From a phage, in sequence record PZ179883.1: 64,000 nt of DNA. One strand, 5' to 3'. The notes beneath the pieces were generated by a model. The model made no database searches. It was given only the letters and a program-made list of their open reading frames with translations, and was not told the DNA's origin. The position numbers and the translations under genes are program-made. The number at the start of each line of letters is the position of its first letter. The stretch's first letter is position 1. Shown here one piece after another: positions 26,938 through 39,916 of the stretch.

Positions 26938-27519
26938 CTAACCGAGCTTTTTAGTTAATTCGTTCCAATGTTTTCTACACAAAGAAACATAAATTTCATC
27001 ACCAATACAGATTTGATTACCTTCTTTAACTGGTGTTCCATCTTCCATTAATCGAGCTGTCATAATAGCTTTTTTACCACAATGACAAACTGCCTTTAGT
27101 TCAATAAGTTTATCTGCAATCGCCAAAAGTTCTTTAGAACCTTCAAATAATTTTCCAGCGAAATCAGTCCTTAGCCCATAAGCCATAACAGGAACATTAT
27201 ATGTATCAACAATTCGACTTAATTGATGCACCTGTTCAGTTTTTAAAAACTGAGCTTCATCTACAAATACACAATGAATATCTTTTTGTGCTTCAGCCCA
27301 TTTATAGAACTCAAAAATATCCATATCATCCGTAATAATATTCGCTTCCTGCTTAATTCCAATGCGAGAAACGACTTCACAGACAGAATCGCGAGTATCA
27401 ATAGCAGGCTTAAGAACTAATACACCCATTCCGCGTTCTTTATAATTATGTGCAGCAGTCAAAAGAGAAGCAGATTTTCCAGCATTCATTGCTGCGTAAG
27501 TAAAAATTAAACTCGCCAT
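26938..27519 (-). CDS. tk: thymidine kinase
   Basis: 193 aa; P-loop YAAMNAGKS, zinc-ribbon cysteines CHCG...C. Confidence 0.9.
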   Translation of the reverse strand: MASLIFTYAAMNAGKSASLLTAAHNYKERGMGVLVLKPAIDTRDSVCEVVSRIGIKQEANIITDDMDIFEFYKWAEAQKDIHCVFVDEAQFLKTEQVHQLSRIVDTYNVPVMAYGLRTDFAGKLFEGSKELLAIADKLIELKAVCHCGKKAIMTARLMEDGTPVKEGNQICIGDEIYVSLCRKHWNELTKKLG

Positions 27520-27528
27520 ATCACCTTC

Positions 27529-27714
27529 TTAAAGCATATTCACATAAGCTATTAATTCGTTTTCTTTCTTATCAAACCGATCAGCAAATTCTTCTTGCTG
27601 TTCGGGAGATAGCGGGCCGTATTCATCATAAAAGGTGTTTGCTTCTGTATGCTCATCTAGAAGTTCATGGATAAGCTCAAACAATTTATCTTTTTGTTCT
27701 TTACTCAGACTCAT
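27529..27714 (-). CDS. hypothetical acidic protein (61 aa)
   Basis: Track ORF. Confidence 0.4.
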   Translation of the reverse strand: MSLSKEQKDKLFELIHELLDEHTEANTFYDEYGPLSPEQQEEFADRFDKKENELIAYVNML

Positions 27715-27880
27715 ATATTAATTTCCAGGAGTTTTAAAATAATTCGCTTTTGCTTAAATATTTCCATAGTTAAATGACCAGTATCTTTTTGACCGATTCC
27801 AATGGCAAAACCTTTATTGACAGCGAGTTCAATTAAATTATCAAGCTCACGTAACACTTCATACTGTAACTCAAAACTAT

Positions 27881-28093
27881 TCATTTCGGTTTACCTTCTT
27901 TAACGAAATCTGGATAAGGATAAAATCCCGAATAAAATCCTTCACCTTTATGATTGATGCATCCTTTATTAGAACAATAGCACCAATAATCGAAATCACA
28001 AGCCATTTCATCGTTGCATAAAGCAAAAACAACTGGCCATTTACACTTTTCACAATGGGCATTTTTAAGAATACTAGTTTGGCTCATAACCAT
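27881..28093 (-). CDS. cysteine-rich small protein (70 aa)
   Basis: Multiple CxxC-like pairs (CEKCKW, CDFDYWCYC, CINH). Confidence 0.45.
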   Translation of the reverse strand: MVMSQTSILKNAHCEKCKWPVVFALCNDEMACDFDYWCYCSNKGCINHKGEGFYSGFYPYPDFVKEGKPK

Positions 28094-28311
28094 GTAACCT
28101 TTAAGCAGTATTCTTCTACATGCTGTTTACGACCTTTCTTATCAATAAAGGTATATTCAACGAATGTTCCAATGTAGTCTTTATCTACATCATGCGGACT
28201 ATTAATTGGACATTTAGTACGGCAAATGCGTTCCCATTGACGAATAATTACTGCCTTATTCTTTGGGTCATATGGATGTGGATAATGTATATTCATAATA
28301 ACGGTTCCCAA
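28084..28311 (-). CDS. hypothetical protein (75 aa)
   Basis: Track ORF. Confidence 0.4.
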   Translation of the reverse strand: MGTVIMNIHYPHPYDPKNKAVIIRQWERICRTKCPINSPHDVDKDYIGTFVEYTFIDKKGRKQHVEEYCLKVTWL

Positions 28312-28760
28312 TCAACAATCACAATTTCTAATTTAGAGGAATATGTATCTAAAATCCCCTCAATAATATCCCAGTTCCCTTTACCTATGCCTGCACCAAT
28401 CCTAGGCATATAGATTGTAGGTTTAATCAGTTTATTTTCACCAAACTCATTTAATTCTAACATACAATTCATTAAAGCGGAATACTCAAAATTTGGCCCT
28501 GGTTGAAATTGAGTATAAAGGTTGAAGCAATACGCTTTATGAGTCCTAAAGTATTTTTCATAGACTGAGTAAGAACCGAGTTTAGTTACATCACCCCATT
28601 CAGTCTGTAATTTATCAGCTTCCAAAATTTTAGGGAAAGCTTTGGTTAATTGACCCGCTACGCCTGAACCCATAGTATGAAAACAATTGCATCCATGCGC
28701 AATATTTTTACCTTCAGCGAAAAGGGCGACAATATCGCCCTTGATATATTTTACAATCAT
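28293..28760 (-). CDS. macro-domain-like protein (155 aa)
   Basis: GDIV...IAHGCNC...MGSGVAG resembles the macro domain GDIT/VNAAN/GGGV phosphate-binding loops. Confidence 0.5.
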   Translation of the reverse strand: MIVKYIKGDIVALFAEGKNIAHGCNCFHTMGSGVAGQLTKAFPKILEADKLQTEWGDVTKLGSYSVYEKYFRTHKAYCFNLYTQFQPGPNFEYSALMNCMLELNEFGENKLIKPTIYMPRIGAGIGKGNWDIIEGILDTYSSKLEIVIVDWEPLL

Positions 28761-29104
28761 CTAGTACTCAATCCTCGATTATAAGAATCTACCAAACGGT
28801 CAACCATTGAATGACAAGCGGCTTTATCTTTCTCCTCCGCAACTGAACATTCTAAGGTATTCCACTTTTTAGCATATCGTTTTAATAATGTATCGTTTTT
28901 GTATCTGCTTGATTTATCTCTTTCTCCGTCTTTATATGCATATATTAATTTCTGCGCAAATTCAGCTTGGCATGCTTTATTTTTCCCACAATAATCTGCC
29001 GCAGTGCGATTTACATATTCTCTAATTTCAGTATATGATGTATCTGCTGACGCAGAAGCAGAAAATGAAATTAATCCTATACATAAAACCAAAATTTTAG
29101 TCAT
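28757..29104 (-). CDS. secreted cysteine-containing small protein (115 aa)
   Basis: Signal peptide MTKILVLCIGLISFSASASA; size and position match T4 vs, unverified. Confidence 0.45.
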   Translation of the reverse strand: MTKILVLCIGLISFSASASADTSYTEIREYVNRTAADYCGKNKACQAEFAQKLIYAYKDGERDKSSRYKNDTLLKRYAKKWNTLECSVAEEKDKAACHSMVDRLVDSYNRGLSTR

Positions 29105-29642
29105 TTACTATTTCCAAAAGTTTATTATTTTTAAGGTAATTAGCCTTTTCTAGGACTTCAGAAGCATATTTAGAACCAGCTTTAACATTCCATCCCGAAT
29201 TATAAGAGGATATTGCTTTTCTTATATCGCCCTTATGTATATTTAACCAATAAGAAAGTTCAATGTACGCCCAGGAAGCTGAATTGGATCGTTTATTCAA
29301 CATTCTTTTTATTTCAGCATCGGTCATATTATAACCAAGTTCCTTAACTCTTGCTCGCATAGTAGGCAAATAATTTTGGAACATTCCATAAGCGTGATGC
29401 TTTGGTTTAGATTTTAAATTAACTCCGCCAGAGCTTTCTTGCCATAAAATAGCAGCCATTATATGACCTAATCCGCTCTTGTGGATATTTTTGTGTGTTT
29501 TATATTTTCCATCCTTAGAAAATTGTTCCCCGAATTGATACGCGTAACGCATGTTATCGAGTTGGACATTACTGAAAGTATGCTCGGAGCTATGTGCCAT
29601 CATTGAAATGGCCAATAGACCAGCGAGTAGTGCTTTTCTCAT
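29097..29642 (-). CDS. secreted SLT-domain (lytic transglycosylase-like) protein
   Basis: Signal peptide MRKALLAGLLAISMMAHS; ILWQESSGG motif resembling the GH23/SLT catalytic QES motif. Confidence 0.5.
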   Translation of the reverse strand: MRKALLAGLLAISMMAHSSEHTFSNVQLDNMRYAYQFGEQFSKDGKYKTHKNIHKSGLGHIMAAILWQESSGGVNLKSKPKHHAYGMFQNYLPTMRARVKELGYNMTDAEIKRMLNKRSNSASWAYIELSYWLNIHKGDIRKAISSYNSGWNVKAGSKYASEVLEKANYLKNNKLLEIVND

Positions 29643-29649
29643 GCTTACC

Positions 29650-30111
29650 TCATTGAGTTTTAATTACTGCTTTAGAAGCCTTTCCTGGTAAACGACGACT
29701 GTTGATAATTGCCATCCTACATTGAAGTGACGGGTCTTTGAACTTCGCGTTAGGTTTACAAACTGTAAATCCAAGCCAAAGATTTCCATCTGTGATTTCT
29801 AAACGTCCAGGACGATATTCAACCCCATCAATAAAATCCTCGTCAATGTCAGGACGCGGAGGCATACTCAGGAATTCATTAACTTCTAAAACATGGTCTT
29901 TTATTTTATGGAATAATTCAAAAACATATGTCTCATCAATCTCCCGTTGAATTGCACGATCAAGAAGATGCTGAGAATATTTTAGATGAAACGATGAGAC
30001 CCCTGCTGCTTTTGATGCCTCACGAATCTCATTGTTAATTTGACGAAACTCCGACTCAAAGTGACGACGAAGCTTATTTCGACGGATAAAAACTTCTGTA
30101 TTGATAGTCAT
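29650..30111 (-). CDS. regB: endoribonuclease RegB
   Basis: 153 aa, same length and position as T4 regB; early promoter immediately upstream. Confidence 0.65.
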   Translation of the reverse strand: MTINTEVFIRRNKLRRHFESEFRQINNEIREASKAAGVSSFHLKYSQHLLDRAIQREIDETYVFELFHKIKDHVLEVNEFLSMPPRPDIDEDFIDGVEYRPGRLEITDGNLWLGFTVCKPNAKFKDPSLQCRMAIINSRRLPGKASKAVIKTQ

Positions 30112-30138
30112 GTTATTCTCCTCTTAACTGATAGAAAA

Positions 30139-30168
30139 ATTATACCACAGTCAAGAGGAAAAGTAAAC
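30139..30168 (-). promoter_or_regulatory. early promoter upstream of regB (GTTTAC, 18 nt, TGGTATAAT)
   Basis: GTTTAC 30163-30168, TATAAT 30139-30144; 28 nt before regB ATG. Confidence 0.65.
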
Positions 30169-30170
30169 AG

Positions 30171-30491
30171 TTATTCTTTAAATCTAATCAATTTATTCAT
30201 AGACTTTGAAACTTCTGCACGAACCTCATGTAGATTTTTGAGCTGTTCAAGACGCTGCTCATAGTAAGCAATTTCATCTTCTTCGAGACAGTCCTGTGAA
30301 TCTTCTTTAAGATAACGTGCATAGTCCTGGAAAGCGTTACGAACTACTTCCTGGAAGTCATCAAGACTTTGAATTTTCTTAGGAGCAACAGATACACGAC
30401 GAGGGGCAGTATAATACTCATAACCAAACCCTGCGCTTAATTGAGCCATTAGTATTTTTCCTCTGGTTGGAACACTGCGCGACAAGCCCAC
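30171..30491 (-). CDS. hypothetical protein (106 aa)
   Basis: Track ORF. Confidence 0.45.
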
Positions 30492-32310: not shown

Positions 32311-32727
32311 TTAAATGTAAATATTTTTGCCGTAATACTTATACCAGTGTGGCTTCATTAAAATTTTTTCATCGAGTCGTTGTTGACTCAACTTAATAGC
32401 TGATTTGCATGGATTATAATCATTTTTCCATTCTACTGGAATATCGCTGATGTCAGGAACTTCAGTATCTTTTATACTGAACCCGCGTTTTAAGCATTCC
32501 GTTATAATGTCCGATTGACGCTTTCGCAAAAATTCTAACTTATCGTAAAAGAAAGTAACATGACCAGAACCTAAAATAAATTTAGAAGATATTTTAAAAT
32601 CTTTAACGCGCTTACCATTTGCCACATGTTTACGAACTATACCAAAAACACGTGGCAATTCACGATACTCAGCCATAAGATGTTGGTCGGTCAGTTCAGA
32701 AACAAGTGTTAAATTGATACGAGTCAT
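32311..32727 (-). CDS. denV: endonuclease V (pyrimidine dimer DNA glycosylase)
   Basis: From ATG 32725-32727 with GGAGGA RBS: [29 protein letters not shown]..., 138 aa, matches recalled T4 DenV. Confidence 0.9.
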
Positions 32728-32754
32728 AATTTCCTCCAAGTAGTTGATGAATGT

Positions 32755-32785: not shown

Positions 32786-33588
<803 letters not shown>

Positions 33589-34044
33589 TTAAAAGAGGCT
33601 GTTCATTATTCGGTAAAGTGAAGGGCCCATCACATATTGCCACTGAGTACGAGGAATAAGGGCAAAAGCATCCATCTCTGGAATCATAACACCATCTTTA
33701 TTTTCAAAATAAGACTCGCAATGGCAATTTCTAAACATCTCATGCTCTACTGGAATCGTATAATAAAATAACTGTAAGTCTTTATTACTAGAATATTTAA
33801 ATACACCTAGGTCTTCTAGAAGGTCTGGATTATAATTGCTAAAACCAGTCTCTTCTAAACATTCTCTTCGTGCTGCATCTAGTGCGTTTAAATCAGAATT
33901 TTCTACACGGCCTTTTGGAATATCCCAGCGATGTGCCATCATTCCAGGCTTACGAGAACCAGTAACCCGTCCCATGAATAAATCTTTATCTTCTGTCATA
34001 AAGATAATACCAGCTGATAATGTTTTCATTTTAATTTCCTGCAT
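33589..34044 (-). CDS. nudE: Nudix hydrolase
   Basis: 151 aa; Nudix box GRVENSDLNALDAARRECLEETG. Confidence 0.8.
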   Translation of the reverse strand: MQEIKMKTLSAGIIFMTEDKDLFMGRVTGSRKPGMMAHRWDIPKGRVENSDLNALDAARRECLEETGFSNYNPDLLEDLGVFKYSSNKDLQLFYYTIPVEHEMFRNCHCESYFENKDGVMIPEMDAFALIPRTQWQYVMGPSLYRIMNSLF

Positions 34045-38966: not shown

Positions 38967-39042
38967 TGGTCGAGGCAGTAGGGATCGAACCTACGACCTA
39001 GGACTTAGAAGGTCCTTGCTCTTCCTTCTGAGCTATGCCCCG
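38967..39042 (-). tRNA. tRNA-Arg (anticodon TCT), CCA encoded
   Basis: Manual fold: 7 bp acceptor, T-loop TTCGATC, anticodon loop CTTCTAA. Confidence 0.85.
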
Positions 39043-39046
39043 TAAT

Positions 39047-39128
39047 TGGGGTGACCGATGGGAGTCGAACCCATGACTACGAGAATCACAATCACAATCT
39101 CGAGTTCTACCAACTGAACTACGGCCAC
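39047..39128 (-). tRNA. tRNA-His-like (GTG) with 13-nt anticodon loop; possible pseudo-tRNA
   Basis: Acceptor, D-arm, T-arm and discriminator C resemble tRNA-His; anticodon stem CGAGA/TCTCG encloses TTGTGATTGTGAT. Confidence 0.55.
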
Positions 39129-39242
39129 ATTAATACCTACTCCAACAATCAAGATGTCTTCACACGAAATTAAGAGAAGAGTGATCAGTTCAACCCCTAT
39201 AATCGCGTCAAGTAGATATTAATGTGACAGTTGTCACAAATT

Positions 39243-39317
39243 TGGCGGACGTGATAGGATTCGAACCTATAACCAATCGCTTAACAGGCGATCGCTCTGC
39301 CATTGAGCTACACATCC
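39243..39317 (-). tRNA. tRNA-Asn (anticodon GTT), CCA encoded
   Basis: Manual fold: acceptor GGATGTG/CACGTCC, anticodon loop CTGTTAA, T-loop TTCGAAT. Confidence 0.85.
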
Positions 39318-39321
39318 AAAT

Positions 39322-39408
39322 TGGTGGGGAGTGGTGGAGTCGAACCACCCGAGTCGCAATGACAATGGATTTACAGTCCACACCGCTACCTCTACGGGAT
39401 AACTCCCC
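39322..39408 (-). tRNA. tRNA-Tyr (anticodon GTA), long variable arm, CCA encoded
   Basis: Manual fold: anticodon loop CTGTAAA, T-arm GGTGG-TTCGACT-CCACC. Confidence 0.8.
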
Positions 39409-39417
39409 AAATTAATT

Positions 39418-39492
39418 TGGTGGCCCTGGGTGGAATTGAACCACCATCTGGCGATTATGAGTCGCTTGCTTGAACCTTCCAGCTACAGGGCC
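39418..39492 (-). tRNA. tRNA with CAT anticodon (Ile2-type as in T4, or Met)
   Basis: Manual fold: acceptor GGCCCTG/CAGGGCC, anticodon loop CTCATAA. Confidence 0.75.
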
Positions 39493-39493
39493 T

Positions 39494-39569
39494 TGGTGCT
39501 GATTGACGGAATCGAACCGCCGACCTTCTCATTACAAGTGAGTTGCTCTACCTACTGAGCTAAATCAGC
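39494..39569 (-). tRNA. tRNA-Thr (anticodon TGT), CCA encoded
   Basis: Manual fold: acceptor GCTGATT/AATCAGC, anticodon loop CTTGTAA. Confidence 0.85.
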
Positions 39570-39574
39570 AAAAC

Positions 39575-39664
39575 TGGCGGAGGCGATAGGATTTGAACCT
39601 ATGAGTCGCCGGAGCGACTGCCGGTTTTCAAGACCGGTGCATTAAACCACTCTGCCACGCCTCC
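39575..39664 (-). tRNA. tRNA-Ser (anticodon TGA), long variable arm, CCA encoded
   Basis: Manual fold: anticodon arm CCGGT-CTTGAAA-ACCGG, T-loop TTCAAAT. Confidence 0.85.
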
Positions 39665-39666
39665 AG

Positions 39667-39740
39667 TCTCCGTGGCAGGATTTGAACCTACGACATTCTG
39701 CTCCCAAAGCAGACGCTCTACCAAACTGAGCTACACGGAG
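39667..39740 (-). tRNA. tRNA-Pro (anticodon TGG), CCA not encoded
   Basis: Manual fold: acceptor CTCCGTG/CACGGAG, anticodon loop TTTGGGA. Confidence 0.85.
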
Positions 39741-39750
39741 TAAATTAAAT

Positions 39751-39824
<74 letters not shown>

Positions 39825-39829
39825 AAATT

Positions 39830-39916
39830 TGGTGCGAGAAGTGGGACTCGAACCCACAAGGAAATCATTCCGCAGCATTTTAAGTGCTGTGCCTTTACCA
39901 ATTTGACCATTCTCGC
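39830..39916 (-). tRNA. tRNA-Leu (anticodon TAA), long variable arm, CCA encoded
   Basis: Manual fold: acceptor GCGAGAA/TTCTCGC, anticodon loop CTTAAAA. Confidence 0.85.

What the first reader, a model, noticed from the sequence alone, without database searches (positions are those of the whole stretch)
28293..28760. Macro-domain-like protein in the tk-regB accessory block
GDIVALFAEGKNIAHGCNCFHTMGSGVAGQL matches the macro domain N-terminal and diphosphate-binding loops. Macro domains bind or hydrolyse ADP-ribose derivatives, so a phage copy could reverse ADP-ribosylation by host toxins, degrade ADP-ribose-derived immune signals, or tune the phage's own ADP-ribosyltransferases.
Basis: partly seen in the sequence, partly recalled or inferred. 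Interest (0 to 1): 0.6.

Follow-up and report, generated by a model that had tools for sequence, protein, structure and literature searches.

The report
T4 Tk.4/AdfM anti-DarTG2 macrodomain gene

The parts
28293..28760 (-). tk.4 / adfM coding sequence, 155 aa plus TGA stop. It is a single ALC1-like macrodomain.
28683..28697 (-). Codons for H22-G23-C24-N25-C26, the substrate-binding strand end. N25 aligns with SCO6735 Asn27 and PhiKZ gp104 Asn23. H22 aligns with Poa1p His23.
   Evidence: Conservation in 259 relatives: N25 258, C26 258, G23 257, H22 246. Alignments. Mutant data from the literature: SCO6735 N27S nearly inactive; gp104 N23A has reduced activity.
28656..28673 (-). Codons for M30-G-S-G33-V-A35, the first glycine-rich loop (GxG), which binds the distal ribose and diphosphate.
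   Evidence: G33 and A35 are each present in 258 of 259 relatives. The loop aligns with MGAGIA of TARG1 and MGKGVA of DarG.
28507..28521 (-). Codons for N80-L-Y82-T83-Q84. Q84 occupies the column of the catalytic Lys of TARG1 (K84) and DarG (K80), and of the essential Gln85 of SCO6735.
   Evidence: hhalign, hmmsearch alignments and MAFFT A2 agree on this column. Q84 is present in 258 of 259 relatives, with no Lys anywhere. SCO6735 Q85A is inactive.
28375..28404 (-). Codons for P119-R-I-G122-A-G124-I-G126-K-G128, the second glycine-rich (diphosphate-binding) loop. G126 occupies the position of TARG1 Asp125 and Poa1p Phe152.
   Evidence: P119 is present in 256 and G122 and G124 in 257 of 259 relatives. 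Alignments.
28757..28760 (-). ATGA overlap: the tk.4 ATG start overlaps the TGA stop of the upstream gene vs. This suggests translational coupling.
   Evidence: Read directly from the sequence and the ORF coordinates. vs is named from the T4 annotation.
28293..28296 (-). ATGA overlap: the tk.4 TGA stop overlaps the ATG start of the downstream gene tk.3 (DUF7202).
   Evidence: Read from the sequence. The Pfam DUF7202 match starts at residue 6 of the TTG-started ORF, which is the ATG at 28296. T4 tk.3 and tk.4 overlap in the same way.
28757..29104 (-). vs (valyl-tRNA synthetase modifier, 115 aa), the upstream gene in the same transcription unit.
   Evidence: Context only; it is not functionally linked to the macrodomain by any evidence here.

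Best explanation
The ORF is the tk.4 gene of a T4-like phage, recently renamed adfM (anti-DarT factor, macrodomain). It encodes a free-standing 155-residue macrodomain. It is made from the minus-strand regB-vs.1-vs-tk.4-tk.3 gene run, probably by translational coupling to vs. When the host carries the DarTG2 toxin-antitoxin defence, the DarT2 toxin attaches ADP-ribose to thymidines in single-stranded phage DNA and blocks replication. Tk.4 most likely binds the ADP-ribose through its two glycine-rich loops and Asn25 and cleaves the thymine-ribose bond, releasing free ADP-ribose and restoring the DNA. In effect it is an orphan antitoxin carried by the phage. Unlike DarG, it has no catalytic lysine. 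It has an invariant Gln84 held next to Asn25, as in Streptomyces SCO6735. The chemistry is therefore probably lysine-independent, with Gln positioning the distal ribose and water-mediated, substrate-assisted hydrolysis. What is shown: ORF identity, the fold, the active-site residues, and, from the literature, that tk.4 is required on DarTG2 hosts. What is inferred: that protection works by DNA de-ADP-ribosylation, and that the mechanism is of the Gln type.
Against: I found no in vitro assay of T4 Tk.4. The preprint itself says only that enzymatic removal 'seems likely'. Tk.4 lacks the long lysine-bearing mobile loop that SCO6735 uses to bind DNA, and it has Gly where SCO6735 has Val25, so the SCO6735 mechanism cannot simply be transferred. 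Tk.4 shares H-x-C-N-C and Asp49 with the yeast ADP-ribose-1''-phosphate phosphatase Poa1p. This leaves room for small-molecule substrates. Catalytically dead SCO6735, DarG and TARG1 still inhibit DarT in vitro, so protection without hydrolysis is conceivable. The genetic evidence is a preprint, and its assays used a DarTG2 expression plasmid in M9 glucose medium at 30 C.
Confidence: 0.8

Rival explanations
1. Tk.4 protects against DarTG2 without hydrolysis. It would either bind and inhibit the DarT2 toxin directly or cap ADP-ribosylated DNA, acting as a stoichiometric inhibitor rather than an enzyme.
For: Catalytically inactive SCO6735 Q85A, DarG K80A and TARG1 K84A all inhibit DarT activity in vitro, and SCO6735 does so most strongly. 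Tk.4 lacks the catalytic lysine of DarG.
Against: Tk.4 lacks the C-terminal DarT-binding domain of DarG. It is 155 aa and matches only positions 2-146 of the 330-340-position DarG models. The residues that are invariant across 259 relatives are those of the ADP-ribose site (N25, G33, Q84, G122, G124). That pattern fits a conserved small-ligand chemistry better than binding to varied toxins. The Gln-type relative SCO6735 is an active hydrolase.
Confidence: 0.1
2. Tk.4's main role is to process small ADP-ribose derivatives rather than DNA adducts. Candidates are ADP-ribose-1''-phosphate, as in the RefSeq 'phosphatase' annotation and yeast Poa1p, O-acetyl-ADP-ribose, or TIR/Thoeris-type signals. 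On this view the DarTG2 phenotype would be secondary.
Against: The only phenotype reported is specific to DarTG2, which modifies DNA. The 'phosphatase' names are homology transfers, not assays. Poa1p has Ser, not Gln, at the catalytic column. From general knowledge, T4 RNA repair by Pnkp and Rnl1 leaves no 2'-phosphate, so no Appr1p should arise.
Confidence: 0.07
3. Tk.4 erases or tunes ADP-ribosylation (or RNAylation) written by T4's own transferases Alt, ModA and ModB.
For: Only co-occurrence in the same genome. SCO6735 and TARG1 also act on protein substrates.
Against: T4 Alt and Mod enzymes are arginine-specific. From general knowledge of the family, macrodomains cleave acidic-residue, terminal-phosphate and thymidine linkages, not Arg-ADP-ribose. 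tk.4 is dispensable on E. coli K-12 without a defence system. The family occurs in about 2,750 phage records across many genera; I did not check whether those phages encode Alt/Mod homologues.
Confidence: 0.03

Closest known systems
Phage T4 Tk.4 = AdfM (NP_049723; bioRxiv 10.1101/2025.11.20.689424)
   Same: The 155-aa sequence is identical, with the same neighbours (vs upstream, tk.3 downstream) and the same ATGA overlaps.
   Different: Nothing differs in the protein. The host phage is not the T4 reference: the flanking DNA is 97-98% identical and the tk.1/tk.2 cassette is replaced.
Streptomyces coelicolor SCO6735 (PDB 5E3B) and Bacteroides BT1257 (PDB 2FG1/2AFC), Gln-type ALC1-like macrodomains
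   Different: Tk.4 lacks their mobile loop, which is five to six residues longer and carries Lys89/Lys94. It has Gly23 where SCO6735 has Val25 and BT1257 has Ile. It has T-Q rather than G-Q, and it has an invariant Asp49 that they lack. Identity is only 21-29%.
DarG antitoxin macrodomain (Thermus aquaticus 5M31/5M3E, M. tuberculosis 5M3I) of DarTG2
   Different: The catalytic Lys80 in N-F-P-T-K is replaced by Gln in N-L-Y-T-Q. Tk.4 has no C-terminal DarT-binding domain and no adjacent darT gene. Its NCBIfam score is 30 bits against a cut-off of 250.
PhiKZ gp104 'AdfM' (Cell Rep 2026, PMC13309987)
   Same: It is a phage-encoded orphan macrodomain that counters DarTG2. The Asn whose mutation reduces its activity (N23) aligns with Tk.4 N25.
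   Different: gp104 is a close DarG relative (9e-25 to Mtb DarG) with the F-P-T-K lysine motif. BLASTP against Tk.4 finds only a 23-residue match, E = 0.005. The two proteins sharing the name AdfM are separate lineages. gp104 has in vitro data; I found none for Tk.4.
Human TARG1/OARD1 (4J5R) and yeast Poa1p (6LFQ)
   Same: Same ALC1-like / Poa1p-like class. The H-x-C motif is shared with both. H-x-C-N-C and Asp49 are shared with Poa1p.
   Different: The TARG1 catalytic dyad Lys84/Asp125 corresponds to Gln84/Gly126 in Tk.4. Poa1p has Ser at the Gln column and Phe152 where Tk.4 has Gly126.
T4 AdfN (gene 30.3), NADAR-type anti-DarTG1 factor (PMC11825919)
   Same: The same strategy in the same phage: an orphan antitoxin-like hydrolase that removes a DarT adduct from DNA.
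   Different: It has an unrelated fold (NADAR), acts on guanosine adducts made by DarT1, and lies outside this window.

Membership tests
Macro domain (Pfam PF01661) | Score above Pfam's gathering threshold across the whole domain | tested here: met
   27.7 bits against a cut-off of 22; residues 22-132 match profile positions 2-113 of 118.
Macro domain (Pfam PF01661) | Three-layer alpha/beta macro fold | tested here: met
Macro domain (Pfam PF01661) | Two glycine-rich ADP-ribose-binding loops and the conserved Asn | tested here: met
   N25, G33/A35 and G122/G124 are present in at least 257 of 259 relatives.
ALC1-like (TARG1/DarG/SCO6735/Poa1p) macrodomain class | Structurally closer to class members than to MacroD, PARG or macroH2A types | tested here: met
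DarG antitoxin (NCBIfam NF048014, PADLOC DarG) | Full-length, roughly 330-aa two-domain protein that scores above the equivalog cut-off | tested here: not met
   30.3 bits against a cut-off of 250. Only positions 2-146 of 338 match, and the protein is 155 aa.
DarG antitoxin (NCBIfam NF048014, PADLOC DarG) | Catalytic lysine (Taq DarG Lys80, motif F-P-T-K) | tested here: not met
   Gln84 occupies this column in Tk.4 and in 258 of 259 relatives.
DarG antitoxin (NCBIfam NF048014, PADLOC DarG) | Encoded next to a darT toxin gene | tested here: not met
   The neighbours are vs and tk.3. No DarT appears beside the relatives in L002 and L003.
SCO6735/BT1257 subclass (Gln-type DNA ADP-ribosyl hydrolases) | Gln at the position of the TARG1/DarG catalytic Lys, held in place by the conserved Asn | tested here: met
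   Q84 and N25 align with SCO6735 Q85 and N27. The SCO6735 numbering was cross-checked through V25 and K89.
SCO6735/BT1257 subclass (Gln-type DNA ADP-ribosyl hydrolases) | Mobile loop about 5 residues longer, with Lys89/Lys94; Val or Ile at position 25 | tested here: not met
   Alignment A2 shows a 6-column gap in Tk.4 opposite the BT1257/SCO6735 loop. Gly23 lies at the Val25 position and is present in 257 of 259 relatives.
Anti-DarT factor AdfM (functional class: phage macrodomain that neutralises DarTG2) | Gene required for phage growth on DarTG2 hosts | not testable with these tools
   Reported for the identical T4 protein in the HIDEN-SEQ preprint. I could not test it independently.
Anti-DarT factor AdfM (functional class: phage macrodomain that neutralises DarTG2) | Removes ADP-ribose from thymidine in DNA in vitro | not testable with these tools
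   Shown for PhiKZ gp104 and SCO6735. I found no such assay for Tk.4.
Poa1p-type ADP-ribose-1''-phosphate phosphatase | His23, Ser30 and Phe152 (the residues mutated in PDB 6LFS, 6LFT and 6LFU) | tested here: inconclusive
   H22 aligns with His23 and T29 with Ser30, but Gly126 replaces Phe152. The paper describing these mutants is not in the library, so their roles are unknown to me.

The most novel reading that the evidence does not exclude
T4 AdfM may represent a third, phage-specific catalytic variety of ALC1-like macrodomain. It is lysine-independent like SCO6735, but it lacks SCO6735's DNA-binding mobile loop, and it has a Poa1p-like H-x-C-N-C motif plus an invariant Asp49 that could act as the missing general base. 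On this reading, phages recruited DNA de-ADP-ribosylases at least twice from different branches: Lys-type gp104 from DarG, and Gln-type Tk.4 from elsewhere. The Tk.4 branch might also have a wider substrate range than thymidine-DNA, for example RNA or protein adducts or small ADP-ribose derivatives, and so counter more than DarTG2.
Probability: 0.3. Interest if true: 0.4.

Novelty: already known. Interest (0 to 1): 0.15.

Why it matters
Phage macrodomains are common; one survey found them in about 41% of myoviruses (PMC9503650). For years they had no demonstrated role. T4 Tk.4/AdfM, with AdfN, shows that T4 carries two orphan antitoxin-like erasers, one for each DarT chemistry (guanosine and thymidine). 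That point is now published. The residual value here is mechanistic. Tk.4 and about 1,200 cluster representatives at E <= 1e-30 use Gln where DarG, TARG1 and PhiKZ AdfM use the catalytic Lys. Two proteins called AdfM therefore belong to different lineages and probably use different chemistry. This affects mutant design (Q84 and N25, not a lysine), inhibitor design, and the naming and annotation of phage macrodomains, many of which are still labelled 'phosphatase'.

Tried and rejected
1. I looked for a promoter or terminator specific to tk.4. Promoter-like sites were no more frequent than in shuffled sequence (16 against 20.2 +/- 4.1), and none lies directly upstream of tk.4. The only good candidate is upstream of regB, at 30167-30139 on the minus strand. 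I therefore treat tk.4 as part of a multi-gene transcript.

2. I asked whether cellular relatives of Tk.4 sit next to DarT. The two relatives labelled as bacterial MAG proteins (P0072, P0118) turned out to be on T4-like phage contigs with no DarT nearby. No cellular antitoxin context was found for this clade.

4. The hhalign comparison of the family profile with PhiKZ gp104 placed the T-K motif one column off, in a low-confidence stretch. MAFFT with DarG sequences included resolved this to T-K over T-Q.

5. I could not inspect the model's coordinates, so the position of Asp49 relative to the ligand site remains unknown.

6. The Poa1p structure paper is not in the library. A search for further tk.4 literature found nothing beyond the HIDEN-SEQ preprint and genome-comparison papers.

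7. An Rfam scan of the window found only tRNAs.

Full report
OBSERVATION. The ORF is real and lies where stated. The ORF listing gives a single ATG-started ORF at 28293..28760 on the minus strand, 155 aa, whose residues 8-38 are the quoted motif (DNA). The gene lies between thymidine kinase (26938-27519, PF00265, 1.7e-60) and RegB (29650-30111, PF10715, 1.4e-68). Both are on the minus strand, so 'tk-regB block' is accurate.

WHERE THE WINDOW COMES FROM. A megablast of 27500-30200 finds 727 phage records, nearly all from Tequatrovirus or related T4-like phages. The best match is Escherichia phage ECO07P4 at 99.8%. The protein is 100% identical to T4 'ORF 60.5' of X04567. That ORF is gene tk.4 (NP_049723) in NC_000866, annotated 'phosphatase; Tk.4; contains A1pp phosphatase motif'. 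The flanks are 97-98% identical to the T4 reference. A 563-nt stretch between tk and tk.3 (27520-28082) replaces T4's 367-nt tk.1/tk.2 segment, so the window is a close T4 relative and not the reference strain. Many deposited genomes already label the gene 'macro domain protein', 'Poa1p-like family protein with Macro domain' or 'phosphatase'.

IS IT A MACRODOMAIN? Yes, by every test.
- Pfam Macro scores 27.7 bits against a gathering score of 22.
- phmmer against PDB sequences finds BT1257 (1.3e-9), yeast Poa1p (2.8e-6), SCO6735 (3.3e-4), T. aquaticus DarG (5.2e-4), human TARG1 (6e-4) and M. tuberculosis DarG (5.7e-3).
- A profile of 65 homologues (A1) raises these to between 7.6e-19 and 5e-12.
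- hhalign to TARG1 gives 98.2% probability.
- The AlphaFold2 model has mean pLDDT 95.7 and pTM 0.90.
- Foldseek ranks TARG1, Poa1p, BT1257 and DarG first, with TM 0.71-0.81.
The protein therefore belongs to the ALC1-like (Poa1p-like) class.

WHAT IT DOES: ALREADY PUBLISHED. The bioRxiv preprint 10.1101/2025.11.20.689424 (HIDEN-SEQ, 20 Nov 2025) infected a DarTG2-expressing E. coli K-12 with a T4 transposon library. [quoted passage not shown] A clean knockout sensitised T4 to DarTG2. The authors noted structural similarity to the M. tuberculosis DarG macrodomain and renamed the gene adfM. They add that enzymatic removal of ADP-ribose from DNA 'seems likely'. T4's other factor, AdfN (gene 30.3, NADAR fold), handles DarTG1 guanosine adducts but not DarTG2 thymidine adducts. 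A separate paper (Cell Rep 2026, PMC13309987) gives the name AdfM to PhiKZ gp104. It shows in vitro removal of T-ADPr from an oligonucleotide, reduced by an N23A mutation. It does not mention T4.

INDEPENDENT SUPPORT FOR THE DarG LINK. DarG is the only model hit in PADLOC (1.3e-9, profile positions 2-145 of 329) and in NCBIfam (NF048014, 30.3 bits against a cut-off of 250, positions 2-146 of 338). Tk.4 therefore corresponds to DarG's macrodomain alone. It has no DarT-binding C-terminal domain and no adjacent toxin gene, which makes it an orphan antitoxin-like module.

WHAT I CAN ADD: THE CATALYTIC RESIDUE DIFFERS. TARG1 uses Lys84 with Asp125, and DarG uses Lys80. SCO6735 lacks both. It has Gln85 at the lysine position, and Q85A is inactive. 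Asn27 holds Gln85 in place, and N27S is nearly inactive. SCO6735 nevertheless cleaves thymidine-linked ADP-ribose from DNA and rescues cells from DarT (PMC9411070).

Three alignment methods agree on the column.
- hhalign puts Tk.4 T83-Q84 over TARG1 T83-K84.
- hmmsearch puts the family's n-l-Y-t-Q over N-M-I-G-Q of both BT1257 and SCO6735. In SCO6735 that Gln is chain residue 105. With a 20-residue tag this is native Gln85, and the same offset gives Val25 and Lys89 as in the paper.
- A MAFFT alignment (A2) stacks Tk.4-family N-L-Y-T-Q, BT1257/SCO6735 N-M-I-G-Q, TARG1 Y-L-I-T-K, DarG N-F-P-T-K and gp104 M-F-P-T-K. It uses DarG and gp104 sequences recovered.

Across 259 relatives, Q84 is present in 258, and the single exception is a gap. 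None has Lys. N25, G33, A35, D49, Y82 and C26 are each present in 258. G23, G122 and G124 are each present in 257. TARG1 Asp125 corresponds to Gly126 in Tk.4.

Tk.4 is not a plain SCO6735 homologue either. It lacks the longer mobile loop with Lys89/Lys94 that the SCO6735 authors link to DNA binding. It has Gly where SCO6735 has Val25. It shares H-x-C-N-C, a Thr/Ser at the Poa1p Ser30 position, and Asp49 with yeast Poa1p. The Poa1p numbering was checked against the H23A, S30A and F152A chains.

gp104, by contrast, is a close DarG relative (9e-25 to Mtb DarG). Its only BLASTP similarity to Tk.4 is a 23-residue match with E = 0.005. The two proteins named AdfM are therefore separate lineages with different catalytic residues.

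DISTRIBUTION. tblastn finds the protein in 2,751 of 50,697 phage records. The hosts include Escherichia, Klebsiella, Salmonella, Pseudomonas, Vibrio, Acinetobacter and Aeromonas. The records include phages that are not T4-like, with genomes of about 85-150 kb. The family profile finds 1,226 50%-identity cluster representatives at E <= 1e-30 and 18,446 at E <= 1e-3 among 1.84 billion proteins. Two relatives filed under bacterial MAGs sit on T4-like phage contigs with no DarT neighbour.

EXPRESSION CONTEXT. tk.4's ATG overlaps the TGA of vs (ATGA at 28757-28760). Its own TGA overlaps the ATG of tk.3 (28293-28296). This is the same arrangement as in T4. No promoter-like site lies directly upstream, and such sites are not enriched over shuffled sequence. 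The best candidate lies upstream of regB. I infer co-transcription and translational coupling within the regB-vs.1-vs-tk.4-tk.3 run.

MECHANISM, WITH STATUS OF EACH STEP.
- (a) DarT2 ADP-ribosylates thymidine in single-stranded phage DNA and blocks replication: established in the literature.
- (b) tk.4 is required for T4 to grow on DarTG2 hosts: shown in the preprint.
- (c) Tk.4 binds ADP-ribose through its two Gly-rich loops and Asn25: inferred from the fold and from residue conservation.
- (d) Tk.4 hydrolyses the thymine-ribose bond: inferred from SCO6735, DarG and gp104, and not tested for Tk.4.
- (e) The chemistry is lysine-independent, with Gln84 positioning the distal ribose: inferred from the alignment and the SCO6735 mutants.
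- (f) Free ADP-ribose is released. A NUDIX protein 5 kb away (33589-34044) could then degrade it: speculative.

RIVALS. The first is protection by sequestering DarT2 or capping modified DNA. It is supported by the finding that catalytically dead macrodomains inhibit DarT in vitro. It is weakened by the absence of a DarT-binding domain and by conservation focused on the ADP-ribose site. The second is a small-molecule or phosphatase role, supported by the Poa1p-like features and the argument in PMC9503650. It is weakened by the DNA-specific phenotype and the untested homology-based names. The third is erasure of marks made by T4's own Alt/Mod enzymes. This is unlikely, because those are arginine-linked, and macrodomains are not known to cleave that linkage (general knowledge).

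VERDICT. The macro (A1pp) domain has been annotated in T4 for many years, and the anti-DarTG2 role was reported in November 2025, so the finding is already known. The remaining open points are enzymological: the Gln-type active site, the role of Asp49, and the substrate range. Interest 0.15.

Noticed in passing
window 27520-28082: The segment between tk and tk.3 is a 563-nt cassette that differs from the T4 reference, which has 367 nt holding tk.1/tk.2. It carries three small minus-strand ORFs: 27529-27714 (DUF7438, 68.5% DNA identity to T4 tk.2), 27711-27884 (no Pfam hit) and 27881-28093 (Phage_zn_bind). The flanks on both sides are 97-98% identical to T4. This looks like a small hypervariable accessory slot.
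   Followed up: partly
window 38967-39916 (minus strand): The cluster holds ten tRNA genes: Arg-TCT, one with an undetermined anticodon, Asn-GTT, Tyr-GTA, Met/Ile-CAT, Thr, Ser, Pro, Gly and Leu-TAA. ARAGORN could not name the one at 39047-39128, but Rfam scores it as a tRNA at 56.6 bits. From memory, T4 has eight tRNAs, including Gln but not Asn or Tyr, so the tRNA set seems to differ from T4. I did not check this against a T4 record.
   Followed up: partly
window 28722-28742: An 8-bp GC-rich palindromic hairpin (AAGGGCGACAATATCGCCCTT) lies 18-38 nt inside the 5' end of the tk.4 coding sequence. The scan flagged it as terminator-like on the opposite (plus) strand. It could affect translation initiation or antisense transcription, or it could be chance: 4 terminator-like sites were found against 2.4 +/- 1.8 expected.
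   Followed up: no
window 33589-34044 (minus strand): A 151-aa NUDIX protein sits next to the lysozyme gene (33064-33552), with denV at 32311-32739. By position it is the T4 nudE/e.1 equivalent. From memory, T4 NudE hydrolyses ADP-ribose, which would be the product of the macrodomain reaction. Any functional link is speculative.
   Followed up: no
L002 1927-2397 and L003 5001-5480: Two Tk.4 relatives labelled as proteins of bacterial MAGs (Bacilli, Culicoidibacterales) lie on 41-44 kb contigs that are clearly T4-like phage DNA, with Rnl1, a Dda-like helicase, PNKP, T4 spanin and dCMP deaminase. They are probably phage contigs binned into MAGs. In L002 the macro gene sits between an Rnl1-like RNA ligase region and the helicase, and PNKP is 2.5 kb downstream.
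   Followed up: partly
Tk.4 residue D49 (window 28614-28616, minus strand): Asp49 is present in 258 of 259 relatives and is shared with yeast Poa1p. DarG and SCO6735 have Tyr there and TARG1 has Leu. No role is known. I could not inspect the model's coordinates to see whether it faces the ribose.
   Followed up: partly
literature (no window coordinates): The name AdfM is now used for two proteins from separate lineages: PhiKZ gp104 (Lys-type, close to DarG, Cell Rep 2026) and T4 Tk.4 (Gln-type, HIDEN-SEQ preprint, 2025). The Cell Rep paper does not mention T4 or Tk.4. I did not check whether the preprint cites gp104.
   Followed up: yes
window 29097-29642 (minus strand): vs.1, annotated 'hypothetical protein' in the T4 RefSeq record, matches the SLT lytic transglycosylase domain (PF01464, 25.1 bits against a cut-off of 21.3). 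It also has an N-terminal hydrophobic, signal-like stretch (MRKALLAGLLAISMMAHS).
   Followed up: no
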